Source: an uncultured Cytophagales bacterium (GTDB lineage Bacteria; Bacteroidota; Bacteroidia; Cytophagales; 172606-1). From it: a stretch of DNA of 64,000 bases. Location of the stretch: contig CADCTQ010000208.1 of assembly GCA_902805615.1 (NCBI GenBank), positions 3,574 to 67,573 on the forward strand, written 5' to 3'. The notes beneath the pieces are model-generated. The model was not told the DNA's origin. It did not search any database and saw nothing but the letters and a program-made list of their open reading frames with translations. Position numbers and translations under genes: made by a program. Positions 11,301 through 41,800 of the stretch are shown piece after piece (position 1 is the stretch's first letter; each line of letters starts with the position of its first letter).

Positions 11301-13128
11301 GCTCCGCAACGAGGCTGGGCCGCAACACATCCGGGCGTACCTGCAGGGAAAAGTCCCGCCGTACATGGTGCCCGCTTACCTGATGCCGTTGCAGGCGTTC
11401 CCCATGACCGCCAACGGGAAGATCGACCGGAAAGCATTGCCCAAACCCAACGTTGCTTCCCAAACCGGTTACGACCCACCGGCGACTGGCACCGAGTCCG
11501 TCCTGGTGAAGATCACCGGCCAGGTGCTGGACCGGTCATTGGTAGGCGTGCGGGATAACTTCTTTGAAATCGGCGGGCATTCGCTCCGGGCCATGCAGTT
11601 GATCGCCGGCATTTACAACCATTTCAGCGTGAAGGTCACCCTGCGCGAAATATTCAACTACCCGGCCATCCGCGACCTGGCCGTACTGATCGAAACAAAA
11701 GCCAGGTCGCAGCACGAAAAGATTCTTCCCGTCGAGGAACAGGCGCACTACGGCGCCTCGAACGGCCAGCGGAGTGTATGGCTCATTCACGAGCTGGACC
11801 GCGCCAACGTCGCCTACAACATGTCGTCGGCTCATCTGCTTTCCGGCCCCCTGCAAGTGGACGCCCTGGAGAAAGCATTCCGCGCTTTGATCCGGCGGCA
11901 CGAAAGCCTGCGCACCTCTTTCGTGGCCGAAAACGGGTATCCCAGGCAGCGGGTGACCCCGGCAGACCAGGTGCACTTTACGCTCCGGTACACTGCTATA
12001 CCCGAAGACGTTGCGCACAAAGAGGTGGTACTGCACCAGGTATGCCGGCAGGAAGCAGATACGGTTTTTGATCTTGAGAACGGACCGCTGATGCGGGCTA
12101 ACTTGATCCGGGTGCGCGACCGTGAACACTGCCTCGTCATTACCCTGCACCATAGTATCTTCGACGGGTGGTCTTCGGCGGTTTTCGTGCAGGACCTGAC
12201 CGCCCTCTACCACCTGGCGCAACAAGGCAGCACCGGGTCGCTGCCCGCACTGTCCATTCAATACAAAGACTTTACCGCGTGGCAATCCCGGCAGTTGAGC
12301 GGCCGGCAGTTGATGCACCATCAGCAGTACTGGCTTTCCCGGTTCGGCGGCGGGGTGCCCGTACTGAATTTTCCCCTGGACTTCCCCCGGCCCGCCATCC
12401 GGACGTTTAACGGCAGCGTCACCGAAACCGTGCTGGACCAGCAACTGGCTGGCAAACTTGCCGGCCTGGGCGCGGAACGGAACGTAACAACGTACATGAC
12501 CATGCTCGCCTCGGTTAACGTACTGTTGCACTTCTATACCGGCCAAACCGACATCGTGGTAGGGACGCCAGTATCGAACCGGGCGCACTCCGAACTCAGT
12601 AACCAGATCGGGTTTTATACCAACACGCTGGCCCTGCGCACGACCCTTTCGGAAAACGACAGTTTTGCGGCTTTACTGGACCAGGTCAGAACCCATACCC
12701 TGGATGCCTTCGAGCACCAGATGTACCCGATGGATTGCCTGCTGGAAGACCTGGGCGTCCAGGGGCCGGCCCGGCGGTCGTCACTCTTTGACGTGATGCT
12801 CGCATTCGAGTCCTCCACCGAAAGGCATGGGCCGGTCAGCGGCGACTTAATGATCCGGGAGCACCGGGTTTTGCAGCCGACGGCCAAGTTTGACCTGATG
12901 TTCGGCGTGGTTGAAAGCGCCGGCCAACTCACCGTGAAGGTCACCTACGCTTCCGACCTGTTTTCAGCCCTGAAAATGGAATTATTGAACGACCGGTTCG
13001 TCGCCTTGCTCGGCGCAGTGGCCGATAACCCGTTCATCACCATCAAACAGCTTGCGCATTTTCTGCAGGATGATGCCTTGGCCGTGGAAAACCTGGACGT
13101 GGGGCTTTCACTGGAAATTGACCTGTAA
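385..13128 (+). CDS. NRPS-1: FAAL-ACP-C-A-T-C-A-T-C-A-T-C (lipo-initiation unit, 3 modules, extra terminal C domain)
   Basis: 4247-aa ORF. Motifs, in order:
- FAAL: FIQFSSGSTSEPKGVQLTH, LSWMPLTHDMGL, PGYGLAEA
- ACP: SAGAHSL
- C: HHLIADGWS
- A: YTSGTTGQPKG
- T: GGHSLKA
- C: HHIISDGWS
- A: YTSGSTGTPKG
- T: GGHSLKA
- C: HHIVSDAWS
- A: YTSGSTGQPKG
- T: GGHSLRA
- C: HHSIFDGWS
Hand-extracted Stachelhaus codes: DTESIGTVCK, DTESIGTVCK (both Lys-like, versus DAESIGSVCK) and DLFNNALTYK (Ala-type). Confidence 0.97.
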   Translation: MIKSLNDFLAGNAKASTTGITFVEGGASDEFLSYARLFDEARQVLYNLQLQGVKQGDELVLLMEDNRSFLVGFWACLLGKMIAVPLHTGNQDEHISRFMKVWGGLPAPKLLTDEAHLSRILEFAGKSGVNEAVKADLQRRTMLVRDVSNGHAMAPVAPGSPDDLAFIQFSSGSTSEPKGVQLTHRNLVFNCQDIIARYQINSSDSSLSWMPLTHDMGLICFHLTSLLAGINQYIIPTSLFIRRPLLWMEKSSQYRITQIYSPNFGYYYLLSALDKEKNYNWDLSPIRLIYNGAEPISHQLCDSFLQTMRPFGLKENTMYPGYGLAEASVAVTLPTVHAPFRSYHLDRRRLNTGDVIRFCENAGDDTVNFVDVGYPIDHCRLRICDDHDHALPECTIGHIQIKGENVTKGYYNNEQVTRQVFTRDQWLKTGDLGFLIEGRLVITGRAKNLVIINGQNYYPQDIERICEGVEHAGPGRIVACSGRKPGTHREQLVLFVLFRQPLPGFIPLVVRMRAKLAEKMGLVPDAIVPVRRIPKTTSGKIQNFKLVAQYESGEFDQELNRIDQLLRETARDLSPGEQILVICRELTGNGAIAPDDNFLSAGAHSLIIAQMISRLQTRFNVSLCAEDLFIHNSADKLAAYVAQREKSPAEKITPTENNGYYDLTPAQRRLWMLSQLPGGSAAFNLFHGSVINAAVDIVCFEKALVTLVERHEILRTTFTAQEGVPKQKTRNAGEPGFKFDYADLRNSEVTMEMVRAWAADEAAKPFTLEEGPLLRVRLLQVTDCRFVFFFTIHHLIADGWSLAVIAREFSQLYAAYRGGKTCHLPAPSIQYKDFVAWRLHKLEESRLEAHRQFWLSQFSDEVPAVELPVRGNRPAVQTFNGGNVSTVLPAPVNAALKKLGNQEEATHFMVLLTCINLLLHKYSGQGDIVLGTDTAGRTLLELEDQVGYYLNFVPVRTTVTPRGTFTGLLAKVKHQVLQNFKHQEYPVEYLVEDLRAREKNTWRQPFFDVMVLLQNHGANAHFEDLVEGTAGETIEIPSRHSVADLLFEFTERGEVLHLNVQFNPDLYGSAFIEQLVAHFRVLVNAVVAHPERPIAAHTLMDAREMRQFADGLNDTRVSYPDESVITLFEKQAARTPGQVAVICAERAVTYQELNARANVLARCLRDEYHIGREDRVGVMMQRTEHVIVSILAVLKASAAYVPVDPGYPGERVRYLVKDSALRLLLSDRTVEESPGTDVVLVQSLASRTGIDAGNLDFRPAPHDLAYIIYTSGTTGQPKGVMIEHRALADYVLTFARYFKIDEQACIIHQASLSFDTAVEEIYPVLICGGKLVVSRNGGSDAEALASEIEQNKVTLLSATPVVLNQISNYVPKLSSLAAIISGGDVLHVADVERLLPVARVYNTYGPTESTVCATYQAVDSPADVASIGKPIANRRVYLLDETLAPVPAGVVGEICIGGAGVARGYLNLHELTGKVFVEDPFVPGARLYKTGDLGRYRPDGTIEFLGRKDEQVKIRGYRVELREIENLLLQHESVRQAAVVARQIAGEPCLVAYICPVAPETQCDFYQYLSRHLPAYLVPAHFVVLEALPWLPNGKLNKRALPEPAQHANTLYVAPATAMEAALAAVFEAVLGTGPIGVLDNFFSRGGHSLKAVKAISRIRALHNDRLELRDLFEHPTVRALASRVSAGRSEAGHGIPVTGEMSYYPVTYAQQQLWVLHEMDPARAAFNLSWAFAMDGPLDAGAFEKVFQALVRRHENLRATFLMIDGELRQRISAADDTGFAVQYLDCTGETVDGQTVQKLIDRNVREPFDLERGPLLRVKLVRLSARQHVFLCALHHIISDGWSMEVLSGEIKALYLQFRSAGAAPLPPPRIQYKDYVAWKQRLKVESQRAYWLNELAGPLPVIQLPVFGPRPKVRSFKGKSLAFQLGEGTLAALQRLSRGNDATLFMAIVTVLKVLLCRYTGQKDIIIGTDTAGRNHRDLEPLVGYFLNPIAIRTQLEETENFCDCLARVKSKVLGAFENQEYPFDKLVTDLALPRDSSLPPVFSILVLLHNFDQALRFEALSDDLRIVALEQEITSSITDLQFEFVERGSGLSLKARFNDDVYDEAVISRFVGHFEKLVRLVDHHPGKPVTRHALVEYPPVAHLPGNDPLPRKPDQADPLTGLLGGLGAGRGSRVAVACNDRVLTYAELHERSNQLAHYLRDYCRVPVEARIGVLLQRSEYLVVAMLGILKAGACYVPIDPEYPGKRVKFLIEESKVSLVLSDRESMRRHDDLRDERFIIREDTQAALAGCSKRNVPLRHAPDNLAYIIYTSGSTGTPKGVMIEHHSLTDYVATCIAYFKLTADDVVVQQASLSFDTAVEEIFPILCVAGKLVVAEEGGRNIPALVRTIVANNVTVLSTTPLVLNEVNRLGDQLPALRLVISGGDELKPHYVDQLIKRATVFNTYGPTESTVCATYHQVTEPAGAAVIGVPIPGRKVYLMDENRQLVPDGVVGELYLGGAGLARGYTDPVFDAVFIGNPHCPAERLYQTGDLARVLPDGSIQFVGRKDLQIKLRGYRIEPGEIESALRAHASVEEALVVVGETPAEEKYLAAYYTGVSVPAGDLRKYLKQRLPYYMVPQYLVWLDRLPVTYSGKVDRARLPVPRESGESAVEYAAPTTSLEEKLLQLWKEVLNRDQLGVLDDFFEAGGHSLKAAQVISRLQLEYNVGIGLRDLFANPTVSALAAALAAGRQRSGRSIRPVEEQQFFNVSHGQKRLYILSQFDDGRAAYNISLAYRLLGRVEVSRLEQVFVALIERHEALRTVFVSVGGEIRQRVLEKEQVRWAIDFENPESREGTDAEVREIANRVARRVFDLEAGPLLHVKLVRRSEDEHLLIITVHHIVSDAWSIEVLAREAMRLYTRQVERLPPLPIQYKDYSAWQNGNTAAGKFGEDRAYWLEQFRDEVPGLNLPAVYARSHGKKYAGNTVRSVLGRQVSDGLLSLCRREKATPFMGMLAAVYAILYRYTQQDDLVIGTPVAGREGADLDDQIGFYVNTLPLRARVKEKDSFASLLRRVKKVVSDALHHQAYPFDLLVNDLNLKYDAGRNAMFDVMVVFLNDHHPPVAAHRGSMKTEAFRIDSAFSKFDLCLNVIETGGEMELALEYNTGLFDQRWIARFTDHFTRLLASVAANVDGRLAAIDFLSPDEKKSLLSKSSGGRLQAGTPGLLHQLVEERALASPSQCALVCEEATLSYQSLNRRANQLAHYLRTRHAIGRNDLVGLLLDRTAGSVVSILGILKAGAAYVPIDPAYPDERINYIIEDVGLKAIITTTDVLRAGATAPVPSAIRFDAIEKDLDQYPHENPATVNDSSDLAYIIYTSGSTGQPKGVAIEHRNAVSFIDWAGTEFSNSVFDYTIACTSYCFDLSIFELFYTLHAGKTVLLVPSGLDIPKHLSRKNLLINTVPSVVEALIGNGCDLGNVTVLNMAGEPVPLSVKRALDCTRMEIRNLYGPSEDTTYSSCYRFRQQDPVVPIGRPIANTQFYVLDAHLQLVPEGVPGEICIAGSGLARGYMNKVTLTDEKFVENPFAAGTKLYRTGDLGYWLPDGNLMFAGRKDNQVKIRGYRIELGEIEGALQLHPAVAQALVTGVQVQDEKHLIAYYTLRNEAGPQHIRAYLQGKVPPYMVPAYLMPLQAFPMTANGKIDRKALPKPNVASQTGYDPPATGTESVLVKITGQVLDRSLVGVRDNFFEIGGHSLRAMQLIAGIYNHFSVKVTLREIFNYPAIRDLAVLIETKARSQHEKILPVEEQAHYGASNGQRSVWLIHELDRANVAYNMSSAHLLSGPLQVDALEKAFRALIRRHESLRTSFVAENGYPRQRVTPADQVHFTLRYTAIPEDVAHKEVVLHQVCRQEADTVFDLENGPLMRANLIRVRDREHCLVITLHHSIFDGWSSAVFVQDLTALYHLAQQGSTGSLPALSIQYKDFTAWQSRQLSGRQLMHHQQYWLSRFGGGVPVLNFPLDFPRPAIRTFNGSVTETVLDQQLAGKLAGLGAERNVTTYMTMLASVNVLLHFYTGQTDIVVGTPVSNRAHSELSNQIGFYTNTLALRTTLSENDSFAALLDQVRTHTLDAFEHQMYPMDCLLEDLGVQGPARRSSLFDVMLAFESSTERHGPVSGDLMIREHRVLQPTAKFDLMFGVVESAGQLTVKVTYASDLFSALKMELLNDRFVALLGAVADNPFITIKQLAHFLQDDALAVENLDVGLSLEIDL

Positions 13129-13267
13129 TCCTGCCCGGGCGCATCCCGCCGCCTGATTGTTCCTTCCGGAAACAGATTGTACCTACCCGTAACCTTGGTG
13201 CCGGGGTAAAGCCGCCCCTTGCCGCCGCTCTTTTCCTTTCAATTACTTATTTTCCCGCAGGTCCCGT

Positions 13268-14000
13268 ATGAGTTCAACAGGAATACAAAGGCAACGCGCA
13301 CTGGAGTACTGGTTCAATAAGGCGAAACACCTTGCGTTGCCCCCCGCAGGCTTTTCTCCCGCCGGGGAGAAAAAATGTGCCACCCTTGCCTTTCCGGCGG
13401 CGCTTTCGCAAAAACTGAAAGCCGTTTCAAAAGGAGATGCTGCGGTTGAACTGGTGGTGTGCATGGCGGCGCTTTTTGTGCTGCTGGAGAAGTATAATGT
13501 CCGGAAGCCCGTTGTAAGCGCGGTCAACCTCCGTAATCAACCGCCCGACCCGCACGAGCCGCTTGCCTTTTTCAGTGCGGACTGTAGCGGTACCCGTACC
13601 GCGAAGGAAGTCGTCGGCACGATCCAACAACAATTCGGGGAGGCGGTGCGGCATGATTCCTACGACTTGGTCCTGCTTTCCGAAATGCTCACGGTGAACA
13701 ACGCGGGCTCGATCAACTCGTTTTACGCCACCGGGATCGGCCACCGCGCATTCAACGACTGCTCCCCGGAAAGCAAAAGTAAGTTCTCGCTGTACTTCGA
13801 CATTGCCAGCCAGGACGAAGCCTTCGCGCTAACTGTGTACGTGAGCGCCGATCACCAGTTGGGGCACTTTGCCGGGCAGGTTGGCCGTCACTTTATGCGT
13901 TCCCTCCAGGTTGTTCTCACCAGCGCTACCCAGGTATTGAGCCGTTTTTCACTCCTCGATGAGGGGGAAGTGAACGCCCTGGCCGCCGGCAGCAAACGAA
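13268..14000 (+). other. vestigial C-terminal subdomain of a condensation domain at the NRPS-2 N-terminus (no HHxxxDG half)
   Basis: The protein starts MSSTGIQRQRALEYWFNKAKHLALPP... This has the YW...lp / ...LLEKY... layout of the second half of a C domain and runs straight into an A domain (FESQAFTFPDRPAVV). No N-terminal C half or His motif is present. Confidence 0.6.
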
Positions 14001-17000
14001 CTGTTGCCGGCGGCAGCCTGCACGCGTTGTTTGAAAGCCAGGCCTTCACATTTCCGGATCGCCCGGCGGTGGTGGATGGCGCGCGCACCCTCACCTACCG
14101 GCAACTCAACGACCGTGCCGACCGCCTTGCTGGTTACCTGCAATCGCAGTTTGCAGTTAAGCCCGGAGACGCAGTGGGATTGCTGCTGGATCAGTCTCAC
14201 TGGGCAGTAATCGGAATCCTGGGAATCCTAAAGGCAGGGGCGACCTACATTCCCATTGATCCAGCCCATCCCGAGCAACGGATTGCGTACATGCTGCGGG
14301 ACGCGGCGCCGAAAGTGCTCATTGCCAATGCAGTACCGGGCCATGCCGACATTCCGGTCGTACTGCTCGGGCGCGATTGGGACAAGATCGAATCGGCCGG
14401 ACCCCTGCTCCACCACCGGGTTCCGGCCGATGCCCACCGGATTGCCTACGTGATTTATACCTCCGGATCAACCGGCACCCCCAAGGGGGTTCGGGTTTCG
14501 CACCGGGCAGTGGTCAACTTGGTGGAAGGCCTCGTAAGCGTGATGGGCCACGCGCAGGACTGGAAGTACGTTGTAACGGCTGCCCTTACGTTTGATGCTT
14601 CCGTCAAGCAGATTTTCGTCCCCCTTGCCATCGGCGCGGAATTGCACATTCCCGGTGAGCGGGAAGACGTCGGCGCCCTGGTGCGGTACCTGCGGGACAA
14701 ACGCATTGATGCCGTGCACGCCACGCCGCTTTTCTGGCGGGAAATCCTCGAAGCGGTGCGCCATTCGGGCACGAAACCAGACCTCAAATGCATTTCTTCG
14801 GGCGGCGACAGGCTTTCTGCCCGGCTGGCCAATGACCTGCGGCGCTGTTTCGGTGAAGCCCGATTCTACAACACCTACGGCCCCACGGAGGCGTGCATCA
14901 ATTGCCTGGCGCACCAGGTTGAAGGTCACCAGGAAGGTGGCGTGCCCATCGGCCGGCCGCTGCCCAACTACGAGGCGTACATCCTCAATGACAACAACGA
15001 GGTGTTGCCCCCCGGCGCAACCGGCGAGTTGTGCGTAGCGGGCGAAGGCCTCGCCGCCGGCTACCTGCACCGGGCGGACCTGACGGAGGCAAGCTTTGTG
15101 GACAACCCCTTCGCCTCTTCGGGGAAACTATACAAAACCGGCGACCTGGCCCGCTGGCTTCCGGACGGTACGGTCGAATTCCTCGGCAGAAAGGATAATC
15201 AGGTTAAGATAAGGGGAGTACGGGTTGAACCCGGCGAGATCGAAGCGGCGCTCATGGCGCATGAACAGGTCAGGGCCGCCGTGGTGCTTGGTACTGCGCG
15301 CGATTCGGCGGACAACGTGCTGAAGGCCTACATCATCCGGGTGCAGGGCGGCGGGCCGCTTGACTACCCGGCTTACCTGAGGCAACTGCTTCCGGATTAC
15401 CTGATCCCGGCGTATTTCACCGAGATGGAAGCGTTTCCCCTGACTGCGTCCGGCAAGTTGGACGTTGCGGCGTTGCCGGAAGCTGCGCTGACGCACTACG
15501 CCGCGCCAGCCAATGAACGTGAGCTGACCCTGCAACGCATCTGGCAAAAGGTTTTGCAGCGCGGCCGAATCGGCGTCCACGATAATTTCTTCCAACTGGG
15601 TGGGCACTCCCTGAAAGGCGTGCAGGTAATCGCCCAGGTGAACCAGGCCTTGGGGACGCAGTCGAGCCTGCGGGACCTGTTCACGCACCCGACCATTGCG
15701 TCGCTGAGCACGCACCTGGCGTCGTTTTTGGGCGGGGAGCCCTCGGCAATCCCCGTTGTTCCCGCGGCCAGGTACCATCCCCTTTCGAACGCCCAGCGCA
15801 GAATATGGATCGCCCAGGCGGCCGGTGGCGGTTCCGTCTACAATATTCCCGGCGTGTACGAGTTGAAAAACCTGGACGTCAAAGCCTTCGAGGCGGCGTT
15901 CCGGGAGATTATAGAAAGGCACGAAAGCTTACGGACGACGTTTGCCGTAGTGGACGGCATTCCCCGGCAGGTAGTGCACCCTTACGAAGCGCTGGACTTT
16001 GCCCTGGCCAGGATTGACCTCCGATACCGGGCAGACGCCCGGGCGCACTGCGCAAGACTTGCCCATGACGAAGCCACTGCGGTTTTCGACCTCGAACGCG
16101 GCCCGCTTGTCCGCGGCACGCTGATCGCACTCGACGAGGCCACCCATCTCTTGCTGCTGACCCTGCACCACATCATCAGCGACGGATGGTCCATGGGGGT
16201 GATGGCCAACGACCTGCTGACGCGATACGGGTCGTTGAAGAACGGTGACGGTCAACCGCTCCCGCCACTGCGCATGCAGTACAAAGACTACACGGCCTGG
16301 TTCGAGGCGAGGCTGAACGCCCCGCAAAGCGGGCGCAGCCGGTCTTACTGGTTAAAACAATTTGAGGGCGAACTGCCCGTCCTCGAACTGTCGGCGGGTA
16401 CGAGGCCCCCCGTAAAGACCCTGCGCGGGGCAAGTCTCGAATTCAGGCTGGAACGGGAGCTGAGCGAAGGGTTACACACGCTGGGACTGCACCACGGCAG
16501 CACGCTGTTCATGACGTTGCTGGCGGTGGTCAAAACCTTGATCTACCGCTATACCAACCAGAAGGATTTGATCATCGGCACCCCGGTGTCGGGGCGCCTG
16601 CACGCCGACCTGGAGAACCAGGTTGGGTTTTACGTCAACACAATCGCCCTCCGCACCCAGCTTGCCGGCGACGAAACTTTTGAACACTTATTGCGGCAAA
16701 TCCGGGCAACAACCCTCGATGCGTACGAGCACCAGGAGTACCCGTTCGACCTGTTGGTCGAATCGCTGAAGCTTACCAGGCACCCGAGCCGGTCGCCCTT
16801 GTTCGACGTACGGGTGGAGGTACAGCAGGGCACGAACGTAAACCTGCCGGGGTTCGGCGAAAACGGTTGGCGCGAAGCACGGGAACTGCTGAGCCATACC
16901 ACTGAGAGCAAAGACGATCTGCACTTTCTGTTCTATGAATCGGCCGAAGGGCTTGCGCTGATTGTCACCTATAACACCGACCTGTTTGCCGCGCAGTACA

Positions 17001-29500: not shown

Positions 29501-32289
29501 GGCTCAGCGCGGCGATCCACCCCACCGACGACCAGGCGTTTACGCTGAACCGGTTGCTGCACCTGAGAAAGCACAATCCGAAGGCCGCCGACAAACTGTA
29601 CCAGTTGCCCAATGGCATGGTCGTCTGTCATAACAACAAGAACGAAACGGACCTGGTGTATTTCGAAATTTTTGAAGACCTCACCTATCTCAAATACGGC
29701 ATCGAGATCAACGCCGGGGACGTGGTCGTTGATGTCGGGGCCAACATCGGTCTTTTTTCATTGTTCGTAGGCAACCATTTCCCCGGCACCAAAATCTACA
29801 GTTTTGAACCGGTGGCACCCGTGTATGAGGTGCTTAAAGTAAATTTATCGCTGTACGACATCCAGGCGACTCCTTTCAATGCCGGCATGGGCGATAAGCG
29901 CGAAAAAGTAACCTTTCAGTACTATCCCAACAACACCGTTTTATCGGGGCGTTTCGGCAGCGCGGACGAAAAGGTGAACGTCAAGAAGTACGTTCAAAAC
30001 CGCGCCGCCTTCGACCGGCTCAGTATTTCCGATGACCAAATCGACGCCCTGATTGAAGAACGGGTGCTGTCGGAAGAAGTGGAATGTGAGCTGACGGCCT
30101 TGTCCGACTTTATCCGTGAGCAATCCCTGACCTGCATCGACCTGCTTAAGATCGACGCCGAGAAAAGCGAGCTGAACATCATCCGGGGCATCCGCGAAGA
30201 GGATTGGCGCAAGATAAAGCAGGTCCTCATCGAGGTGCACGACATCGGCGACAGCATCAGTGAAATAGAATTCATCCTGAGGGCGCAAGGCTTCCAGGTT
30301 CAGCGGGACCAGGACGACCTGCTGCAAGGCACCGACATCTACAACCTGTATGCCTCCCGCAAGCCGCTTAAAGACAAACACGCCGTACTAACACCCGCCA
30401 AAGCATTCAATGCAAACGGCAACTGGACCCTCGGCGATGCCCTTATCAATGAGCTGAAGGCTTTCTGCAAGGACTACCTGCCGGAATACATGATTCCGTC
30501 CCAATTCGTTCTGGTGGATCACATTCCGCTGACGGCCAACGGCAAGCTCGACCTGAAGGCCATTGGCGCAATGGAAACGCCGCAACCGCCCACCGTGGAC
30601 GAAGGGTACGCGACCTGGACCCATACCCAGAAGGTCCTGGCGGCGATCTGGACCGGGATTGTTGGCAAGCAGCACGTCAAATTATCGGACGACTTTTTCA
30701 AAATCGGCGGGCATTCCCTGAACTCGGTTCAGTTGATTGCCAGGATTCAACACCACTTCAACAAGGTGCTTTCGGTAGCGGATGTGTTTAAGCACTCCAC
30801 CCTGGAGCAGCTTTCCCGAATCGTTGAGGCAAAACCGGCGTCGGCTTCCAATCCGATAACCCCCATTGAGGAGCAGGAGTTTTATGAGATGTCTCACACC
30901 CAGAAAAGGATCTGGCTGTCGAGCCAACTGGAAGAAAACCGCCTCATCTACAATATACTCTCGGCGCACGAAATCAAGGGGCTCAACGTGGACGCTTTCA
31001 TGCGGGCCCTGTCGTGCATCATCCTCCGGCACGAGATCCTGCGGACCACTTTTAAGGAGTTGAACGGGGCACCCCGGCAGTTCGTCAACCGTGCCCCGCA
31101 GCCGGCCAGTTACGTGTGCACGATCAAACTACCCGCTGAACAGCGGAGAGAGCTGATCAAAGCTGAAGCGGCCCGGTTGTTTGACCTGGAAAACGGACCG
31201 CTGTTACACGTTACCATTGCCGATGCGGGCAACGACAGCCACCTGGTCGTGCTGACGATGCACCACATCATCAGTGACGGATGGTCCTTGGACGTTTTCT
31301 TTAAGGAGTTCATTGCCTTGTATGACCTGATCGTGGATGGAAAAGAAAAAGCAATGATCCCCCTGCGCATCCACTACAAGGACTACACGGCGTGGCAGAA
31401 AGCGCAACTGAACGGGGAGGTTTTTGAGCGGCTCGGGTTGTTCTGGCACCACAAACTAGGCAAACAGATCGTGGCGCTGAATTTCACGCCGGATTTTCCA
31501 AGGCCGGCCATCCAGACCTTCAACGCGAACAGGATATCAATGGTGCTCGACAGCGAGCTGACCCGGCAGATCAGGAGTTTTACGCGCACACGTGACACTA
31601 CTCTGTTCATGATGTTCACTTCGGTCATGTACATCCTGTTCCGCTACTACACCGGGGAAGATGACATCATCATCGGAACGCCGGTGGGAGGCCGGGAGAA
31701 CCTGGCCCTCGAAAATCAGATCGGTCCGTACATCAATACGTTGCCCGTACGCTTCCGGACCGACGTGCAGGCAGATTTCGAGCAGCACCTCAAAAATGTG
31801 CGCGCGGATATTTTGTCGATGTACGATCACCAGGCTTACCCGTTCGATCTGATGCTGAATGCGCCCGGGGTGACCATTGACCGGGCGCGGTCGCCCCTGT
31901 TCGACGTAGGGTTTACCTGGCAGAATACCGACGGGATTTCGGGCGAATCAGCGTACAAAGCCCACCGGTCCCTGGAGATTGAGGGGGTAGAAGTACAGGC
32001 AGAAAGGGTTAAGACCGACTTCTGGTTCCACGCCTGGGAGGAGGGGGAGTCGGTAGTTTTCAGTCTCATGTACAACGCCAATCTGTACAAAAAGGCCACG
32101 TGCGAAAACCTGCTGAGCGATTACAGAACGTTGATTACCCAGCTCATCCTCAAGCCCGGGGTTCCGGTTGAAGACCAGTTGGACGGATTGCGCCAGAAAA
32201 AACTGGATCGGCAATCGGCCGCGGCGCACAGTGCCTACAACAGCAACCTGCAGAAGCTATTGCAGTTTACCACAACCCAGAAAGACTAA
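23401..32289 (+). CDS. NRPS-3: docking-C-A-T-C-A(FkbM-type MT insert)-T-C
   Basis: 2962-aa ORF. Its ATG overlaps the NRPS-2 stop (ATGA at 23401-23404). Motifs, in order:
- C: HHIVMDGWS
- A: YTSGSTGYPKGVLVEH
- T: LGGHSLKA
- C: HHIIADGWS
- A: YTSGTTGTPKG, interrupted by a methyltransferase domain
- T: IGGHSLNS
- terminal C: HHIISDGWS
Hand-extracted codes: DAFWLGGTFK (Val-type) and DLTKIGEIGK (Asp/Asn-type). Confidence 0.97.
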   Translation: MTESQLIDALIAAGIKVQLLNNDQIKITVPDGPYDKELLEKLRRQKSGVVEYLKKIGRRRAGARVLAIEEQEYYKLSNAQQRVWLKARLSNQESIVHNSPLSYKIKGLDKNAFAYAFRQLIHRHEILRTTFITVAGQPRQKVHDSASFYCRIGEADLRCDPDQEQSLNRLMAREINARFDLGQGPLVRATLVQVEDDEHVFLLVMHHIVMDGWSLAVIVNELLALYQAYCLQREDPLPQLQLQYKDFVHWQHRAITQEDEAYWLGEITGDVPRLALPSDFPRGNPSKFNGGQVRVLVPARQVGTLRTFATARSTSLSTVVYSVFSILLARLSNQPQFLVGVANANRNHLDLEHLVGFFVNTLLIRNTIDESCSFEAYVDQVTQRMLNALQHQNYPVDLLVEKLNPERTADHQSFFNVVFSFQNFGDLRLPAGNANDTAATLRIEAFRNDFDSMEFDLVFTVMESDGGLWVSLRYDKDAFSAASVERWAGMFMKLVAQVCDSMPAGRLRLADLSVLAPDEHERLVNAFNDNRTAYPRTATVPGLFREVVAKHGDKPALQYRGKVCTYQELEDRSNQVANLLHQHQVQTEDRVLLLMDPSDEAIAILLGILKAGGAYVFINPDYPVRRINYIAEDTGARIIFSEKKYLPLIGEMQKSGNAPGTVVYVDDEADLAHLNGRDTRYAPPVVTGDCLAYITYTSGSTGYPKGVLVEHRGVVRLVRQTNYIDIRDTDTVAQTAPIAFDASTFEIWGALLNGAKLHLLDPHALLNAKLLRSFMRDNGITICWLTSSLFNRLADLDVEIFAPLRTLLVGGEALSAAHVNKVLGAHKALTLINGYGPTENTTFSSCWPVEREYAADIPIGRPVANSQCYVLDDARRVQPIGVVGELFVGGDGLARGYLNAPELTHAKFIRSPFGGGERLYSTGDQVRWTEAGILEYKGRRDQQVKIRGFRIELKEVEAVIKRIPGVREAVVVEDRDQDQEKYLQGYFTSPEHLSPNDVRKQIAGFLPAYMVPAQMLQVDAIPLLPNGKADHRALRNLRLQLKYDLAGDIQLSSTETTLRAIWENMLDRKNIRPEDDFFELGGHSLKAVMVAALVSKELGIDVDMSALFKHTTIRALGRALDAQIPQRGHEAIPGIEEQAHYPLSHAQKRLWVLEHAGTGTSAYNMGFAFLLRGADYAVLAGALQRVVARHEILRTVFKVIDGEPRQRVLPPDVPFRVPCVDLGHLADGISLARESVKRDADTLFDLENGPLLRAKLIRVDDHAHVLFLGMHHIIADGWSMDVLFKEIASSYNAILTGEPLTLDPLAVQYKDFTVWQNKQLSDDHFSAHRQYWLDTFRGDIPVLPLTTDRPRPARQTYHGDKVSIDLEPALCDQLKAMGVERSASLFMLLLASVKTFLLRYTGQEDIVVGTVTAGRSHVGLNNQIGYYLNTLPLRTRLSGRDTFLDAVGKVRKATLDAFNHEGYPFDKLVRELALDRDPGRFPLFDVLVALQNAPDASASYPMHNVQVSAFDFGATQHSKFDLSFIFSEQGPAVTCAVEYNTDLFDPNRIERLARHYLQFLRAVLASPEAAVAALAYTTGTERRQLVQQFCGGEAVAVPNSFIETFEQRVAAHPQRAAIRYQDRSISYEALNAAANKVANHFRQQYGIRPDDLVGVMVERSPELIIALLAILKCRAAFVALETAFPRKRMEYMLSDTGIGLLVTGSDNLFNLDFFQGNLFCIDLELPQLASSAENPAADQTENPLAYVLYTSGTTGTPKGVQIGAASLMNYLQWANKRYLGDLDKAVFAVFSPVTFDLTLTSIFAPLAGGHTLRIFPHHLPVNEVLSEVFGHGSDVAVVKLTPSHLDLLNLLDLPETDVKNVIVGGEALLDRHVQTLRKLNPSVKIFNEYGPTETTIGCTVAEVLGQIHIGRPIDNTNIYILDADLQLAAVGVPGEICIGGAAVGEGYLNRAELTQQKFIAYAGEDGRTDRLYRSGDMGYWTPGGDIRLMGRKDAQVKVRGFRIETAEVERVLVNHPAVALAHVYVTKDATREPRLSAAIHPTDDQAFTLNRLLHLRKHNPKAADKLYQLPNGMVVCHNNKNETDLVYFEIFEDLTYLKYGIEINAGDVVVDVGANIGLFSLFVGNHFPGTKIYSFEPVAPVYEVLKVNLSLYDIQATPFNAGMGDKREKVTFQYYPNNTVLSGRFGSADEKVNVKKYVQNRAAFDRLSISDDQIDALIEERVLSEEVECELTALSDFIREQSLTCIDLLKIDAEKSELNIIRGIREEDWRKIKQVLIEVHDIGDSISEIEFILRAQGFQVQRDQDDLLQGTDIYNLYASRKPLKDKHAVLTPAKAFNANGNWTLGDALINELKAFCKDYLPEYMIPSQFVLVDHIPLTANGKLDLKAIGAMETPQPPTVDEGYATWTHTQKVLAAIWTGIVGKQHVKLSDDFFKIGGHSLNSVQLIARIQHHFNKVLSVADVFKHSTLEQLSRIVEAKPASASNPITPIEEQEFYEMSHTQKRIWLSSQLEENRLIYNILSAHEIKGLNVDAFMRALSCIILRHEILRTTFKELNGAPRQFVNRAPQPASYVCTIKLPAEQRRELIKAEAARLFDLENGPLLHVTIADAGNDSHLVVLTMHHIISDGWSLDVFFKEFIALYDLIVDGKEKAMIPLRIHYKDYTAWQKAQLNGEVFERLGLFWHHKLGKQIVALNFTPDFPRPAIQTFNANRISMVLDSELTRQIRSFTRTRDTTLFMMFTSVMYILFRYYTGEDDIIIGTPVGGRENLALENQIGPYINTLPVRFRTDVQADFEQHLKNVRADILSMYDHQAYPFDLMLNAPGVTIDRARSPLFDVGFTWQNTDGISGESAYKAHRSLEIEGVEVQAERVKTDFWFHAWEEGESVVFSLMYNANLYKKATCENLLSDYRTLITQLILKPGVPVEDQLDGLRQKKLDRQSAAAHSAYNSNLQKLLQFTTTQKD
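29500..30440 (+). other. FkbM-family (Methyltransf_21-like) methyltransferase domain inserted between A8 and A9 of the NRPS-3 second A domain
   Basis: About 300 aa lie between A8 (GRKDAQVKVRGFRIETAEVE, ~29365-29425) and A9/A10 (LPEYMIP at 30478-30498; NGKLD). The insert contains VVDVGANIGLFS (29722-29757), KIYSFEPV and IDLLKIDAEKSELNIIRG, the FkbM-type signature. Confidence 0.85.
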
Positions 32290-34549: not shown

Positions 34550-34597
34550 CACCTTTGGCCGTGAACGAATTCTTCGCCTGACTCTAAAACAAGCACT

Positions 34598-37537: not shown

Positions 37538-38830
37538 ATGCCTGATTTCGTTGTAAAAAGCCTGCGGTCACCTTCCCAACGCTGGATCGAAAACCATTCT
37601 AACCACGCGTTAGGAACCCTCATCCGACTTTCGCTCCGGGAAGTCCCCGAGGCTGACCCGTTTACCGCATCCTTCCGGCAGTTATTGTCGCGGCATCACA
37701 TCCTGAGCGCCAGTGGCACTGATCCGTACCAGGAGGCGCCGTCGCTGGAGGTACTGGACAGGGCCGGTCTGGCCGCTGCCAATGGCCGGGAAGCAGACCC
37801 GTGGCTTGGGTTCAAACGGCGCATTGTGAACGAACGCGCCTTCAGGGTGTGGCTGGTAAAATCTGCCGGCGGGGCCAAAGTGTTTTTGTACCTGCCCGCG
37901 GTCATCGGCGACGCCGCGTCGGCGGTGCACCTGTGCCGGGAGTTGATCGGGTTTTACCGGGGCAGTGAAACTTTGCCAACTTCCGCGCCGCCACTGCAAT
38001 TTGCCCAGTACGCCGCCTGGCACAATGAGCTTTTGGACGAACCCAACGCGGAAGCGGAAATGTTTTGGCAGCAGTTCTCCGGCCGGATGCCATTGCCGAG
38101 AAAACTTACCGTTGAAAAAAATGGCGGACCAGAAAGGGATTCGTTACTGGACAGCATCCGGTTTGCGATTCCCGGGGGGGACAACGTGCGCACCCCTGCG
38201 GGCGGGGAGCGCCTGCCCGGGGAGTCGTTTATGTTGACCTGCTGGAGCGTCGTGCTTGCCCAGTACCTGGTGGAAGCAGATTACGTGATGGGCAGAATCG
38301 GTTCCGGGCGTTCGTATGATTTGTTTGAGAATATTACCGGTCCTTTTTCGCGGCCGTACCCCGTGAATATAGCCTTTCCTGCGTCAACGACGTTCGCAAC
38401 GGCGGTACGGGAAGTAACGGCCCAGTTGGCCCTCGCCCAAGCGTGGCAGGACCACCTGAACCTGGAAAAGTTTAACCCGCCCCCAACCTCGTCCGCCGGT
38501 TCCTTCTTCCCGTTCGGTTTTGAGCTGATTCCCGCGGATGAAACGTTACGCCAGTTTACGGACGAATGCATAGAAGACGTGTATACCCTGTGCGAGCCGT
38601 TCAAGCTGAAATTGCTGGCCTTGGCCGGGAAGGCTGACGTACAGTTTCAACTGTATTTTGATCCGGCGCTTTACGACCGCGAATTCGTGGTGGTGTTGCG
38701 GGACCGGTTCACCCGTGTTTTCAGTAAAGCGGTTTCCGATCCGGAGGTGACCCTGACCGACCTGCGGGCGGCTACCGCCGAGGATCTGCAATACATTGCG
38801 GCGCACGCCGGATGGAACGACGACCGCCCC
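37538..38830 (+). other. full-length condensation-like domain lacking the catalytic His motif (interface-like or pseudo-C domain)
   Basis: Fold-length region with C-like features (FAQYAAWHNELL, MFWQQF, PLPRKL) but no HH: the motif position reads LPAVIGDAAS. It lies directly downstream of the SyrP-like gene and directly upstream of an Asp-type A domain. Confidence 0.65.
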
Positions 38831-41800
38831 GGATTAAAGGGCAACTTTAAGGAATTGTTTGAGGAGCGGGCGCTGACGACACCGGACCAGGCCGCCGTTT
38901 CTTACGAGGGGCAACACCTCACGTTCGGGCAACTGAACGCCCGGGCCAACCAACTGGGCGCGTACCTGCGGCGGCATTTCGGCCTGCGGAGCGAAGACAT
39001 CGTTGCCGTGAAATGTGAGCGCTCCATCGAGATGATTGTTGCATTGCTCGCCGTTATAAAGGCCGGCGGCGCCTTTCTGCCCGTGGATGGGCAATCACCG
39101 GAAGCCAGGTTGAACAGCATCCTTGCCGACAGCAACGCCAGGCTACTGATCACGTCCGGGGATACCGTTGAGCGCAACGTCACCCGGGTGGACCTGAAAA
39201 GGCAGGAGGAAGAAATTCAAAAAGAGGACGTAGGCAATCTGCCGGCCGCCATCCGGCCGTCTTCCGGGGTCTACGTCATCTATACGTCGGGTTCAACGGG
39301 GCAGCCCAAGGGCGTGATGGTCTCTCACGGGGCATTGGTCAATTACCTGACCTGGTTTATTGATGCCTACCAGATCGGTGTCCGGGACAGAACGCTGGTT
39401 TTGTCATCGGTGGCCTTCGATCTTACGTACACAAGTTTGTTCTCGTCGCTGCTCGCCGGGGCTTCGCTACACCTATTGAAGGAACGGGAACACTTTGATG
39501 CAGAAGACATGACCACCGCCCTGATTGCGCAGGGGATTACCTACCTCAAGTTAACCCCTTCCCATTTTGGCCTGCTGGTGAATGATCCGGCGTTCGAGGA
39601 GCAGCGGGAAAAATACCGGCTGCGGCTGGTTATCCTCGGGGGAGAGGAGATCAACGTCGCTGACGTACAAAAGTACATGTCCGGCAACCCCGATTGCCTG
39701 TTCGTGAATCACTACGGGCCTACCGAAACAACCATTGGAGCTGCCGTCAGGGAGATCAGCAGCCATACCCTCGGGACGTTCGCGCAAAAGCCGGTCATTG
39801 GAAAACCAATCCGGAACAACAAGGTGATCATACTCGACGATGCCGGCCGCGTTGCGCCCGTTGGCGTACCGGGTGAAATTTGCATTGCCGGAGCGGGCCT
39901 GGCCAACGGGTACCTCAACAGTCCGGTACTCACCGGCGAGAAATTCGCGTGGTTTGATTCCGGTGCCGGATTTTTCAATCAGCGCCTCTACAGAAGCGGC
40001 GACGCCGGTTTCCTGCTGGCCGATGGGAACATCGCTTTCCTGGGCAGAAAAGACAACCAGGTGAAAATAAACGGCTTCAGGGTGGAGACCGGTGAAGTGG
40101 AACATGCCCTCGAAGGGTACCCGGGAGTCGATAAGGCAGTGGTGATCCCCGTGAAGAACACCGCGGGAAAACATGAGTTGTACGGCTACCTGTGTGCCGG
40201 CAATGCGGTGACGGCGGCCTCGCTCAACGCATACCTCCGGGAACGCATTCCGCAGTACATGATTCCCAAAGACTACAAAAGAGTGCCTGCCATTCCCCTC
40301 ACCCCCAACGGGAAGGTGAACCGTAAAAAACTACTGGAAATGCCGGCCGTCCCGTTGGTGCGGGAAAACGCCGTTGAACTGCCGGCGAACGAGGTGGAGC
40401 AGAAACTGGTGGAGGTCTGGAAAAGCGTGTTGAACTGCGACGGCGTGGGCGTGAATGATAATTTCTTTCACGTCGGCGGCGATTCGATCAAAGCCATCCA
40501 GGTTGCTTCCCGGATGCACGCTTCGGGATACAAACTGAACATCCGGAATTTGCTGAAGTTTCCCGTGCTCAAGCAAATGGCCACCAAGGTTGAGGTGGTC
40601 CGCCAGGCACCCGACCAGTCGAGCGTACAGGGCGTAATCCCGTTAACGCCAATCCAGGCCAGGTTTTTACGGAACATAAAGACCGACCCGAGTCATTATA
40701 ACCAGTCGTTTCTGCTCCGGTTTGACCAAACGCTGGACCGGAGGACCGTCGAAATACTCTTCGACAAACTGCTGGCGCACCACGACATGCTGCGGGTTAC
40801 CTTCCGGAGAGAAGGTTCGCGGTACGTGCAACTGGCCAATGGCACCGGTCAGCGGCTCGCCGTTGAGGAAGTTGACCTGGCAGAACACCCGGATGCGGCG
40901 TCCCGTTTTCAAGCCCACGCAACCGACCTCCAGCGGCGGCTTGCTATCACCGAAGGTCCGCTGGTCAAAGTCGCGCTCTTTCATTTTGCCGGCCACGCGA
41001 AGCTGTTGGTGGTGATCCACCATTTAATTGTTGATTTCGTGTCGTGGCGCATCCTGCTGGAAGACCTCAATACCCTGGTGCAGCAGCATCAACAAGGCGC
41101 ACCGTTGCAGTTACCGCCCAAAACCAGCTCCTACAAAGCCTGGTCGGAGAGCCTGCTGGCCTACGCCGGGTCGGATGACTTCGCCAGGGAGAAGGGCTAC
41201 TGGGAAAATCAGGCGCAGCTCGACGTACCGGCCATCCAGCCTGACTATGCGCAGGCAACGAACCTGACCAGGGATGAGGCATCCGTGTCTTTCGCGCTTA
41301 CCGAGGCGCAAACCCACGTGCTCCAGGCCAGGATAAACCCGGCGTTCGGAACCAACATGAATGACGTATTAATTACCGCGGTCGTCGTGGGTTTCAGGGA
41401 AGTATTCGGGCACAACCGGCTGTCCATCGACTTGGAAGGACACGGCCGGGAAGATATTCAGGAGGCCGTTGATACCAACAGAACGGTCGGCTGGTTTACC
41501 AGCATTTACCCGGTCGTGCTCGATGCGTACGGCAAGGGGAGTCTGGTGGAGGAGCTGGTAAACGTTAAAGAGACTTTGCATAAAGTCCCGCGCGGGGGAA
41601 TCGCCTACGGCGTGATGCGTTACTTGGGCAGCGAAGGCGTTACACTCCCCGGGAGAGAGCCCGCTTCGCAAATAATTTTTAATTATCTTGGTCAATTTAA
41701 CAGTGAAATAAGTCAACTTTCTTATATATTAGCTAACGAAACGAAGGGCGTCGAACGCAGTGGTCGCCAGGACCTGCTGTACGAATTCAGGATTGGCGCC

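What the first reader, a model, noticed from the sequence alone, without database searches (positions are those of the whole stretch)
11740..14000. Module split at the C|A boundary: NRPS-1 ends in a complete C domain and NRPS-2 begins with only the C-terminal half of a C domain
NRPS-1 terminates with a full C domain (HHSIFDGWS ... ends 13128). After a 139-bp gap, NRPS-2 opens with ~245 aa that look like the second subdomain of a C domain (ALEYWFNKAK..LPP...LLEKYN...) fused to its A domain.

This suggests that an ancestral C-A fusion was broken and a remnant was kept, possibly as a pseudo-docking surface for the trans C domain. The A domain behind it has an unrecognised code (DAKHSGTINK).
Basis: partly seen in the sequence, partly recalled or inferred. 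Interest (0 to 1): 0.65.

Follow-up and report, generated by a model that had tools for sequence, protein, structure and literature searches.

The report
Half condensation domain at NRPS junction
Two neighbouring peptide-synthetase genes are split between the bond-forming domain and the amino-acid-activating domain, and the second protein keeps a non-catalytic half of the bond-forming domain; the same arrangement occurs at other junctions and in polymyxin-type synthetases, so it is real but not unique.

Summary
NRPS-1 (385-13128) ends in a complete condensation (C) domain with HHSIFDG. After 139 bp, NRPS-2 (13268-23404) opens with 245 aa that match only the C-terminal lobe of a C domain. Evidence: Pfam positions 190-454 of 456; hhalign columns 202-457 of 458; the family profile gives E 3e-38. 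The N-lobe and the catalytic motif are missing. No alternative start lies upstream. The code DAKHSGTINK is correct.

It is not a local accident. The window holds a second copy of the junction (N9 | N10 at 55737/55844). All four related loci from other phyla show it too, at five junctions. A PmxA-like polymyxin-synthetase subunit starts with the same half-domain and ends in a full C.

These N-terminal half-C domains resemble each other more than any internal C-lobe, so they form an old, separate lineage. An AlphaFold model (pLDDT 85) places the half-C on the A-domain core, as in solved C-A structures.

Most likely it is a non-catalytic C-lobe relic. It keeps the A domain's native interface and probably helps to dock the upstream terminal C domain, whose short tail usually ends in Phe. 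Docking is inferred, not shown.

Verdict: new member of a known kind; moderate interest.

The parts
11716..13086 (+). Terminal, complete C domain of N1 (aa 3778-4234). It has both lobes and HHSIFDGWS, and is the presumed catalyst of the N1-to-N2 condensation.
   Evidence: Pfam Condensation positions 2-444 of 456, E 3e-102; HH motif at aa 3922; phmmer domain map.
13051..13128 (+). C-terminal tail of N1 after the C domain (..LAHFLQDDALAVENLDVGLSLEIDL, net charge -6) plus the stop codon. It is the counterpart of the Phe-ending tails at the other junctions.
   Evidence: Translation; tail comparison; charges.
13129..13267 (.). 139-bp intergenic gap. It holds no start codon in the N2 frame and one weak terminator-like hairpin (13136-13155) that is not above the shuffle expectation.
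13268..14002 (+). Half-C of N2 (aa 1-245). It is a C-terminal lobe of a condensation domain without N-lobe or HHxxxDG, basic (pI 8.3), with degenerate C5-C7 motifs.
   Evidence: AlphaFold model and Foldseek.
14003..15487 (+). A domain 1 of N2 (aa 246-740), Stachelhaus code DAKHSGTINK, substrate not assignable.
   Evidence: Pfam AMP-binding and AMP-binding_C; code.
15518..15742 (+). T (carrier) domain 1 of N2 (aa 751-825). This is the acceptor carrier that must reach the C domain of N1 in trans.
   Evidence: Pfam PP-binding; phmmer.
54334..55737 (+). Second instance, upstream side: the terminal complete C domain of N9 (HHIITDGDS) and its tail ..STRKAKKFKADFTF, with the stop codon.
   Evidence: Pfam positions 2-451 of 456, E 6e-102.
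55844..56593 (+). Second instance, downstream side: the half-C of N10, followed by an Asp-type A domain (DLTKLGHIGK). Possible starts are ATG 55808, ATG 55844 or TTG 55862. The ORF runs off the window.
   Evidence: Pfam Condensation positions 194-453 of 456, E 1e-12, 47.9 bits, above the gathering score. BLASTP against the N2 half-C gives 25% identity, E 9e-15. P0001; code.
30856..32289 (+). Related third junction, upstream side: the terminal complete C domain of N3 (HHIISDGWS). Its tail lacks the terminal Phe motif.
37538..38842 (+). Related third junction, downstream side: a full-length but non-catalytic C-like domain at the N-terminus of o7 (PAVIGDAAS in place of HHxxxDG). It precedes an Asp-type A domain and lies directly after a TauD-family gene.
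   Evidence: Pfam Condensation positions 140-449, E 3e-19; sequence; code DLTKIGHIGK; TauD.

Best explanation
The first 245 aa of N2 are a non-catalytic relic of the C-terminal lobe of a condensation domain (a 'C*' or half-C). It belongs to an old, widespread lineage of such N-terminal domains.

The assembly line is cut between C and A, so its subunits have an A-T-...-C layout. The complete C domain that joins the N1-bound lipopeptide to the first amino acid of N2 sits at the end of N1 and must work in trans on the carrier domain of N2.

The half-C stays fused to the A domain for two proposed reasons. First, the C-lobe forms the native packing partner (the 'platform') of the A-domain core, and so supports A-domain folding, activity or selectivity. 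Second, it probably gives the upstream subunit a surface to dock on. That subunit's C domain is followed by a tail of about 20-25 aa that ends in a hydrophobic-x-hydrophobic motif, usually with a terminal Phe.

Shown here: homology, truncation, loss of catalytic residues, recurrence of the junction, and separate descent of the half-C family.
Model level only: packing of the half-C on the A core.
Inferred: the docking role, the role of the tail, and trans condensation.
For: Identity as a C-lobe:
- Pfam. N10 scores above the gathering threshold.
- hhalign, E 3.5e-6 for N2 alone and 3e-38 for the family, over columns 194-458 of 458.
- Exhaustive search: 22,089 hits.
- No N-lobe is possible upstream, and no HHxxxDG is present.

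Structure:
- AlphaFold2 model of N2 aa 1-745 from a 20-sequence alignment: pLDDT 84.6, pTM 0.82.
- Foldseek matches whole C-A structures: EntF 5ja2 with query TM-score 0.81 over 798 columns, also Txo2, SrfA-C and McyB C1A1. A-only structures reach only about 0.60.

Recurrence:
- N9 | N10 in the window.
- L001 (Ca. Deferrimicrobium MAG), L002 (Omnitrophota MAG), L003 (Puia sp., two successive junctions) and L004 (metagenome).
- All seven junctions whose context was recovered have an upstream gene ending in a complete C domain, at most 139 bp before the half-C gene.

Separate lineage: the best BLAST hits of genuine N-terminal half-Cs are other N-terminal half-Cs, although internal lobes outnumber them about 720 to 30. 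The top four hits of N2 are all N-terminal.

Known system: P0118 has the A-domain codes Leu/Thr/Dab/Dab and the layout half-C-A-T-E-C-A-T-C-A-T-C-A-T-C. This matches PmxA of P. polymyxa E681 as tabulated in PMC3708778. It starts with the half-C and ends in C plus ..IEFAF.

Tail: about 24 of 45 C-terminated proteins in the sample end in a hydrophobic-x-Phe C-terminus.

Charge pattern within the window: the N1 tail is -6 and the N2 half-C has pI 8.3; the N9 tail is +1 and the N10 half-C has pI 5.2.

Literature: the C-A interface affects A-domain activity and specificity (bioRxiv 10.1101/2021.08.23.457306).
Against:
- The AlphaFold alignment contains canonical C-A modules, and the network was trained on such structures. 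The canonical packing may therefore be partly imposed.
- Half-C domains of a sister clade head assembly lines with no upstream NRPS gene (L002 first ORF; P0106, which runs through to a C-terminal thioesterase-like end; ThdA C*). The lobe can evidently be kept without a docking partner.
- The N1 tail ends in ..EIDL, not Phe.
- The charge complementarity rests on two pairs, and the L003 pairs do not show it.
- If the relic occupies the canonical site on the A core, how the N2 carrier domain reaches the acceptor side of N1's C domain is unexplained.
- Only seven junctions have genomic context.
Confidence: 0.55

Rival explanations
1. The half-C is a purely structural buttress. It is kept only because the A domain needs its native C-lobe interface for folding, solubility, activity or selectivity. 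Contact with N1 is made elsewhere, or only through the carrier domain.
For: - The half-C is predicted to sit on the A core as in C-A didomain structures.
- Sister-clade half-Cs occur at the true start of assembly lines without an upstream C (ThdA C*, PMC7253712).
- The C-A interface influences A-domain activity.
Against: - It does not explain why a conserved tail with a terminal Phe accompanies the upstream terminal C domains.
- It does not explain why junction-type half-Cs form clades distinct from starter-type ones.
- Two subunits that must exchange an intermediate need some recognition, and no COM, TubC_N or other docking element is present at this junction.
Confidence: 0.28
2. The half-C is a recruitment platform for a trans-acting tailoring enzyme, such as the CmlA-like diiron beta-hydroxylase at 32924-34549. 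That would make it a shortened form of the 'interface' domain proposed for beta-hydroxylase partners.
For: - The cluster encodes a CmlA-like and a TauD-type hydroxylase.
- o7 starts with a full-length non-catalytic C-like domain directly after the TauD gene.
- The half-C of N10 precedes an Asp-type A domain.
Against: - A domains behind half-Cs have many specificities: Val, Thr, Ser, Gln, Asn, Ala, Leu, Asp and unknown codes.
- The same half-C occurs in a PmxA-like polymyxin synthetase subunit; the five-gene pmx cluster as described in PMC3708778 holds only three synthetase and two transporter genes.
- The A domain of N2 is not Asp-type.
- The half-C lacks the whole N-lobe, unlike the full-length C-like domain of o7.
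Confidence: 0.08
3. Lobe swap. The half-C of N2 pairs with the N-lobe of N1's terminal C to form the working active site across the two proteins, as in a naturally split C domain. N1's own C-lobe would then be spare.
For: C domains are pseudo-dimers of two lobes, and a lone C-lobe has an exposed face that normally meets an N-lobe (established structural knowledge of C domains). This is inference only.
Against: - The C-lobe of N1 has well-kept C5-C7 motifs, whereas those of the half-C are degenerate.
- The terminal C domains score like ordinary C domains.
- The half-C lineage evolves apart from catalytic lobes.
Confidence: 0.05
4. Artefact: a frameshift, an assembly error, a pseudogene or a wrong start codon makes an ordinary C-A module look split.
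For: The Pfam score of N2 aa 1-245 alone is below the gathering threshold.
Against: - N1 already ends in a complete C domain, so nothing is missing there.
- The 139-bp gap cannot hold an N-lobe of about 190 aa.
- The same layout is seen twice in the window and in four independent loci.
- The start region (ALEYW) is conserved with homologues that begin at the same point.
Confidence: 0.02

Closest known systems
Polymyxin synthetase PmxE / PmxA / PmxB of Paenibacillus polymyxa (subunits built as A-T-C, A-T-E-C and A-T-TE)
   Same: - Subunits are cut between C and A. The upstream protein ends in a complete C, and the next begins with the A-containing part of the module (PMC3708778).
- The PmxA-like representative P0118 has codes Leu/Thr/Dab/Dab. 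It carries the same N-terminal half-C (aa 13-259) and ends in C plus the tail ..IEFAF.
   Different: - The window's cluster is a different, unassigned lipopeptide line of probable Bacteroidota origin. Its closest half-C loci include a Puia sp. MAG.
- The N2 and N10 half-Cs fall in a different clade from the Paenibacillus-like ones.
- The polymyxin papers read here describe PmxA and PmxB as starting with 'A' and do not mention the half-domain.
- P0118 was identified as PmxA-like from its codes and layout, not from an accession.
Truncated, presumed inactive N-terminal condensation domains (C*) of initiation modules, e.g. ThdA of thermoactinoamide synthetase, and C* in fungal NRPSs
   Same: A partial C domain in front of the first A domain of a protein, thought inactive and possibly tuning the A domain (PMC7253712; PMC10212144). 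The sister clade B in my sample looks like this type (L002 first ORF, P0106).
   Different: N2 is not an initiation module. It follows a subunit ending in a full C, and its half-C groups with junction-type rather than starter-type half-Cs.
C-A catalytic platform, and C-domain subdomain boundaries used in NRPS engineering (XUC units; 'extended gatekeeping' of the C-A interface)
   Same: The unit 'C-lobe + A + T' kept together here is the one that engineering work treats as co-adapted (plus my own knowledge of the XUC concept). The model puts the half-C on the A core as in EntF, SrfA-C and Txo.
   Different: The natural unit here carries a dead C-lobe and is followed by a whole C, not by an N-lobe. 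The active site is not split.
Interface (I) domain of beta-hydroxylase partner modules (Reitz et al. 2019, PNAS; cited in PMC12230676; paper not readable here)
   Same: A non-catalytic member of the C-domain superfamily placed before an A domain. The N-terminal domain of o7 in this window fits that description: full length, no HH motif, Asp-type A domain, TauD gene adjacent.
   Different: The half-C of N2 is only the C-lobe, precedes a non-Asp A domain, and its relatives are not tied to hydroxylases. The details of the I-domain definition are from memory.
Known NRPS docking systems: COM helix-hand (E|C), beta-hairpin docking / TubC_N with a C-terminal short motif (T|C), and PAX-type docking domains
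   Same: A short C-terminal tail on the upstream protein and a folded N-terminal element on the downstream one. The same assembly line uses TubC_N at N2|N3 and a COM-like pair at o7|N9.
   Different: These systems join T or E to C. A 2021 review lists only COM, PAX and beta-hairpin classes for NRPSs (PMC9113145). The C|A junction with a half-C is not among them, and N2 aa 1-245 has no TubC_N or COM features.

Membership tests
Condensation domain superfamily (PF00668): C-terminal lobe only (C*, half-C) | Sequence or profile homology restricted to the C-terminal subdomain | tested here: met
   Pfam positions 190-454 of 456; hhalign columns 202-457 of 458, E 3.5e-6; family profile E 3e-38.
Condensation domain superfamily (PF00668): C-terminal lobe only (C*, half-C) | Absence of the N-lobe and of the HHxxxDG catalytic motif | tested here: met
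   The ORF frame opens at 13193 and the first start codon is 13268. No HHxxxDG in aa 1-245.
Condensation domain superfamily (PF00668): C-terminal lobe only (C*, half-C) | C-lobe fold packed against the A-domain core | tested here: met
   AlphaFold model, pLDDT 84.6. Foldseek query TM-score 0.80-0.81 to EntF C-A-T structures, against about 0.60 for A-only hits. This is model-level evidence only.
Condensation domain superfamily (PF00668): C-terminal lobe only (C*, half-C) | Lack of condensation activity | not testable with these tools
   Needs an enzyme assay.
C|A-split subunit junction (A-T-C layout, polymyxin-synthetase type) | The upstream subunit ends in a complete, motif-bearing C domain | tested here: met
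   N1 terminal C, E 3e-102, HHSIFDGWS.
C|A-split subunit junction (A-T-C layout, polymyxin-synthetase type) | The downstream subunit begins with an A-T unit without a catalytic C of its own | tested here: met
   N2 is half-C-A-T-C....
C|A-split subunit junction (A-T-C layout, polymyxin-synthetase type) | Same half-C and same terminal C plus tail in a polymyxin-type subunit | tested here: met
   P0118 is PmxA-like by codes and layout, with a half-C at aa 13-259 and the tail ..IEFAF (PMC3708778).
C|A-split subunit junction (A-T-C layout, polymyxin-synthetase type) | Condensation in trans between the two proteins | not testable with these tools
   Needs reconstitution or genetics.
Interface (I) domain of beta-hydroxylase partner modules | Full-length C-like domain lacking the catalytic His motif | tested here: not met
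   The N2 domain is only 245 aa, the C-lobe alone. The N-terminal domain of o7 does meet this feature.
Interface (I) domain of beta-hydroxylase partner modules | Placed before an Asp- or His-activating A domain that is served by a beta-hydroxylase | tested here: not met
   The N2 A1 code is DAKHSGTINK, not Asp or His. Relatives precede many specificities.
Known NRPS docking domains (COM, TubC_N / beta-hairpin, PAX) | Junction of T or E with C, and the matching N-terminal docking fold | tested here: not met
   The junction is C|A. Pfam finds no TubC_N in N2 aa 1-245, whereas it does in N3.
Starter-module C* (initiation relic) | Located in the first module of the assembly line with no upstream donor | tested here: not met
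   N2 follows N1 (FAAL-T plus three modules plus C) on the same strand. Its nearest relatives are junction-type.

The most novel reading that the evidence does not exclude
The C-lobe-derived N-terminal domain and the short tail after the upstream terminal C domain, which ends in hydrophobic-x-Phe, together form a distinct and so far undescribed class of NRPS docking for C|A junctions. Pair specificity would be set partly by charge: acidic tail with basic half-C at N1|N2, and basic tail with acidic half-C at N9|N10. The class would be used from Bacteroidota to Paenibacillus, polymyxin synthetase included.
Probability: 0.3. Interest if true: 0.65.

Novelty: new member of a known kind. Interest (0 to 1): 0.4.

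Why it matters
- NRPS engineering depends on knowing where assembly lines can be cut and how subunits find each other.
- Natural C|A cuts that always carry a dead C-lobe suggest that the A domain should not be separated from its C-lobe partner.
- They also suggest that a terminal C domain can act in trans when such a lobe and a short tail are present.
- If the tail and half-C prove to be a portable docking pair, they would add a new, orthogonal connector. It would also apply to polymyxin-type synthetases.
- For annotation: proteins that start with 'half a C domain' after a C-terminated neighbour are not fragments or pseudogenes.

Tried and rejected
- The search for homologous proteins with N2 aa 1-245, and with the 12-sequence half-C alignment, returned nothing. 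The word index evidently does not reach these giant proteins. As a result, the look-up of encoding contigs could not be used for the representative hits.
- The look-up of encoding contigs for N2 found no record, so the source genome was not identified.
- The first AlphaFold run, on a 2-sequence alignment of the half-C alone, was unusable (pLDDT 45).
- phmmer of the half-C against PDB sequences gave only noise. The sole NRPS hit was TomB C at E 1.1.
- The scan with the 4-member N10-type alignment found only 3 loci, and the metagenome scan found 1. The survey is therefore small.
- The Reitz et al. 2019 paper on interface domains is not held. A literature search on docking in polymyxin synthetase found nothing relevant.
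- I considered whether half-Cs are tied to Asp modules and beta-hydroxylases, and rejected it.
- I considered that o7 | N9 was a 'C|C' junction, and rejected it. The last domain of o7 is an E domain (PLTPIQ.., HHLIVDFVS) with a COM-type tail.

Full report
**What is in the window**

All large ORFs lie on the + strand and form one NRPS cluster.

| ORF | Coordinates | Layout |
|---|---|---|
| N1 | 385-13128, 4247 aa | FAAL-like A - T, then three C-A-T modules, then a terminal C |
| N2 | 13268-23404, 3378 aa | 245 aa (half-C) - A-T-C-A-T-E-C-A-T |
| N3 | 23401-32289 | TubC_N docking domain - C-A-T-C-A (FkbM-type methyltransferase insert) - T-C |
| o4, o5, o6 | 32924-37472 | CmlA-like diiron beta-hydroxylase; carbamoyltransferase; TauD-family dioxygenase |
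| o7 | 37538-42010 | non-catalytic C-like domain - A-T-E |
| o8 | 42029-44431 | MacB/FtsX-type permease |
| N9 | 44713-55737 | C-A-T-C-A-T-C-A-T-C |
| N10 | from about 55844, runs off the window | half-C-A-T-C-A(MT)-T-C... |

**Check of the observation**

The last domain of N1 matches Pfam Condensation positions 2-444 of 456 (E 3e-102). It has HHSIFDGWS and normal C-lobe motifs. The stop codon is at 13126-13128 and the next ORF starts at 13268, so the gap is 139 bp.

The N2 frame opens only at 13193 and holds no start codon before 13268. An N-lobe of about 190 aa cannot be hidden upstream, and N1 is already complete.

N2 aa 1-245 match Pfam Condensation positions 190-454 weakly (E 1.8e-4, below the gathering score). 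Against nine C domains of the window, aa 13-238 align to columns 202-457 of 458 (probability 87.6%, E 3.5e-6). A 12-member alignment of such N-termini gives probability 99.95% and E 3e-38 over columns 194-458.

An exhaustive profile search of 1.84 billion representatives found 22,089 hits, the best mostly being C-lobes inside giant NRPSs.

The code DAKHSGTINK was reproduced.

**Structure**

A 2-sequence model failed (pLDDT 45). A model of N2 aa 1-745 from a 20-sequence alignment reached pLDDT 84.6 and pTM 0.82.

Foldseek against the PDB returns whole C-A(-T) structures over about 800 columns. EntF 5ja2 gives a query TM-score of 0.81, with Txo2, SrfA-C, McyB C1A1 and LgrA behind it. A-domain-only entries stop at about 0.60.

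In the model, therefore, the half-C has the C-lobe fold and sits on the A core as in the canonical C-A platform. One caveat applies: the alignment includes canonical modules, and the network knows these structures.

**It is a recurrent junction, not a local scar**

1. The window has a second copy. N9 ends in a complete C (E 6e-102) with the tail ..KAKKFKADFTF. About 100 bp later, N10 opens with 250 aa that match Condensation positions 194-453 (E 1e-12, above the gathering score). That region is 25% identical to the N2 half-C (E 9e-15).

2. Scans with an N10-type alignment gave four loci: a Ca. Deferrimicrobium MAG, an Omnitrophota MAG, a Puia sp. MAG with two successive junctions, and one metagenome contig. 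In every case the gene before the half-C gene ends in a complete C domain followed by a short tail..IQIEGEF..KNKFKGGF..KPTFDFE..SSFNITF and ..KNKFKGGF. Together with the window, that makes 7 of 7 junctions.

3. Among the 150 best representatives, about 25 start with a half-C and 45 end in a full C. About 24 of those 45 have a tail ending in hydrophobic-x-Phe. Seven proteins have both features.

4. P0118 (4993 aa) has the layout half-C-A-T-E-C-A-T-C-A-T-C-A-T-C. Its codes are DAWIVGAIVK, DFWNIGMVHK, DVGEISAIDK and DVGEISAIDK. These are the codes and the architecture given for PmxA of P. polymyxa E681. Polymyxin synthetase is described as built from A-T-C, A-T-E-C and A-T-TE units, with PmxB (1102 aa) called 'A-T-TE' (PMC3708778). 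A PmxA-like subunit thus shows the same half-C start and the same C-plus-tail end, although the papers I could read do not mention the half-domain. That PmxB also carries it is inferred from its length only.

**Descent**

I compared about 750 C-lobes from the representatives, the window and the loci. Genuine N-terminal half-Cs have other N-terminal half-Cs as best hits, even though internal lobes outnumber them about 720 to 30. Mere fragments at contig ends behave differently: they hit the internal lobes of their own protein at about 50% identity.

Three groups appear.
- **Clade A:** N10, P0009, P0024/L002b, L001b, L003b, P0084 and P0082, with N2 as a distant member whose top four hits are all N-terminal.
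- **Clade B:** P0137, P0106, P0057, P0056, P0018 and the first ORF of L002. This clade looks like starter-module relics. L002a has no NRPS gene upstream, and P0106 runs through to a thioesterase-like end.
- **Clade C:** P0077, P0079, P0118 and P0125, which look Paenibacillus-like.

The half-C of N2 is not a copy of N1's C-lobe. A phmmer search against the window's own proteins found only a marginal hit. The remnant is therefore inherited as a domain type. The 'break' is ancient.

**Mechanism**

Shown: the only catalytic C available for the N1-to-N2 step is on N1, and the half-C lacks the catalytic lobe.

Inferred: the C of N1 acts in trans on the first carrier domain of N2. The half-C keeps the A domain's native interface; work from the Bode laboratory argues that this interface affects A-domain activity and specificity. 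The half-C also provides a docking surface for the upstream subunit.

In favour of a docking contribution:
- The tail that accompanies terminal C domains is conserved.
- Junction-type and starter-type clades are separate.
- No other docking element lies at this junction, while the same line uses TubC_N at N2|N3 and a COM-type pair at o7|N9.
- Within the window, the acidic N1 tail (-6) pairs with a basic N2 half-C (pI 8.3), and the basic N9 tail (+1) pairs with an acidic N10 half-C (pI 5.2). This rests on two pairs only, and the Puia pairs do not follow it.

Against a docking contribution:
- Starter-type half-Cs exist without a partner.
- The N1 tail lacks the terminal Phe.
- Nothing was measured.

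A 2021 review lists only COM, PAX and beta-hairpin docking for NRPSs (PMC9113145). A C|A docking class would therefore be new, if it is real.

**Rivals**

- A pure buttress role is the main rival.
- Recruitment of a tailoring enzyme is unlikely. The A domains behind half-Cs have many specificities, and the same half-C occurs in a polymyxin-type subunit.
- A lobe swap is unlikely, because N1's own C-lobe is well kept while the half-C motifs are degenerate.
- An artefact is excluded by recurrence.

**Comparison and verdict**

The feature is a truncated, non-catalytic C domain (C*) at a C|A-split subunit junction. Both elements are known. C* is annotated in ThdA and in fungal NRPSs, and the A-T-C layout is known from polymyxin synthetase. 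This is a new member of a known kind.

What seems under-described is threefold: junction-type half-Cs form their own lineages, they always follow a C-terminated subunit, and that subunit carries a characteristic tail. This is worth a test but is not a surprise for specialists. Interest is 0.4.

Noticed in passing
window 37538-38842 (o7 aa 1-435), with 36435-37472 (TauD-family gene): o7 begins with a full-length C-like domain whose catalytic motif reads PAVIGDAAS instead of HHxxxDG. An Asp-type A domain (DLTKIGHIGK), a T and an E domain follow, and the gene lies directly after a TauD-family dioxygenase. This fits the 'interface domain plus stand-alone Asp beta-hydroxylase' arrangement, and it forms a third 'C | pseudo-C-A' junction with N3.
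   Followed up: partly
window 48010-49332 (N9 aa 1100-1539): The second C domain of N9 is full length (Pfam 207 bits) but has LHRIVSEG where HHxxxDG should be: the second His is Arg and the Asp is Glu. It precedes an Asp-type A domain. All three Asp-type A domains in the window (o7, N9 module 2, N10 module 1) follow a non-canonical or truncated C-like domain.
   Followed up: partly
window 23401-23570 (N3 aa 1-55) and 23380-23404 (N2 C-terminus ..HNEIIL): N3 starts with a TubC_N beta-hairpin docking domain, and N2 ends in a short hydrophobic tail after its last T domain. One assembly line thus uses at least three junction types: C|half-C, T|TubC_N-C and E|COM-C.
   Followed up: partly
window 41950-42010 (o7 C-terminus) and 44713-44790 (N9 N-terminus): o7 ends in TPSDFTYKDLSVDDLENIFS after an E domain, and N9 starts MLSKENIKDIYGLSPLQEG. 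This looks like a classic COM donor/acceptor pair with a D-donor-type C domain. The Puia locus L003 has the same E | C pair upstream of its half-C junctions, which suggests a related cluster.
   Followed up: partly
window 29479-30459 (inside the second A domain of N3) and 60941-61903 (inside the second A domain of N10): Two A domains carry inserted methyltransferases of different families. N3 has an FkbM-type insert (PF05050, E 9e-20) in an Asn-like A domain (DLTKIGEIGK). N10 has a class I SAM methyltransferase (Methyltransf_11, E 3e-10) in an A domain with the unassigned code DGGVVVAVYK.
   Followed up: partly
window 32924-36319: A CmlA-like diiron beta-hydroxylase (CmlA_N plus a metallo-beta-lactamase fold) and a two-domain carbamoyltransferase sit between N3 and o7. 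The product is probably a hydroxylated and carbamoylated lipopeptide of at least 14 residues.
   Followed up: no
window 385-2400 (N1 aa 1-642): N1 starts with a divergent AMP-binding domain (fatty-acyl-AMP-ligase-like, E 5e-54) and a carrier domain. This suggests lipo-initiation without a starter C domain.
   Followed up: no
L003 5956-9945 and L002 1792-5964: Single-module proteins of the form half-C-A-T-C, with a Phe-ending tail, occur as stand-alone genes in a row. They look like natural 'exchange units' bounded by a dead C-lobe and a live C domain.
   Followed up: partly
window 45274-47706 (first A domain of N9); also P0024, L001 and L004: The unassigned code DIWVLGADDK of N9 resembles DIWELTADDK, which appears in three unrelated half-C-led modules from MAGs. 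This may be a shared unusual substrate.
   Followed up: no
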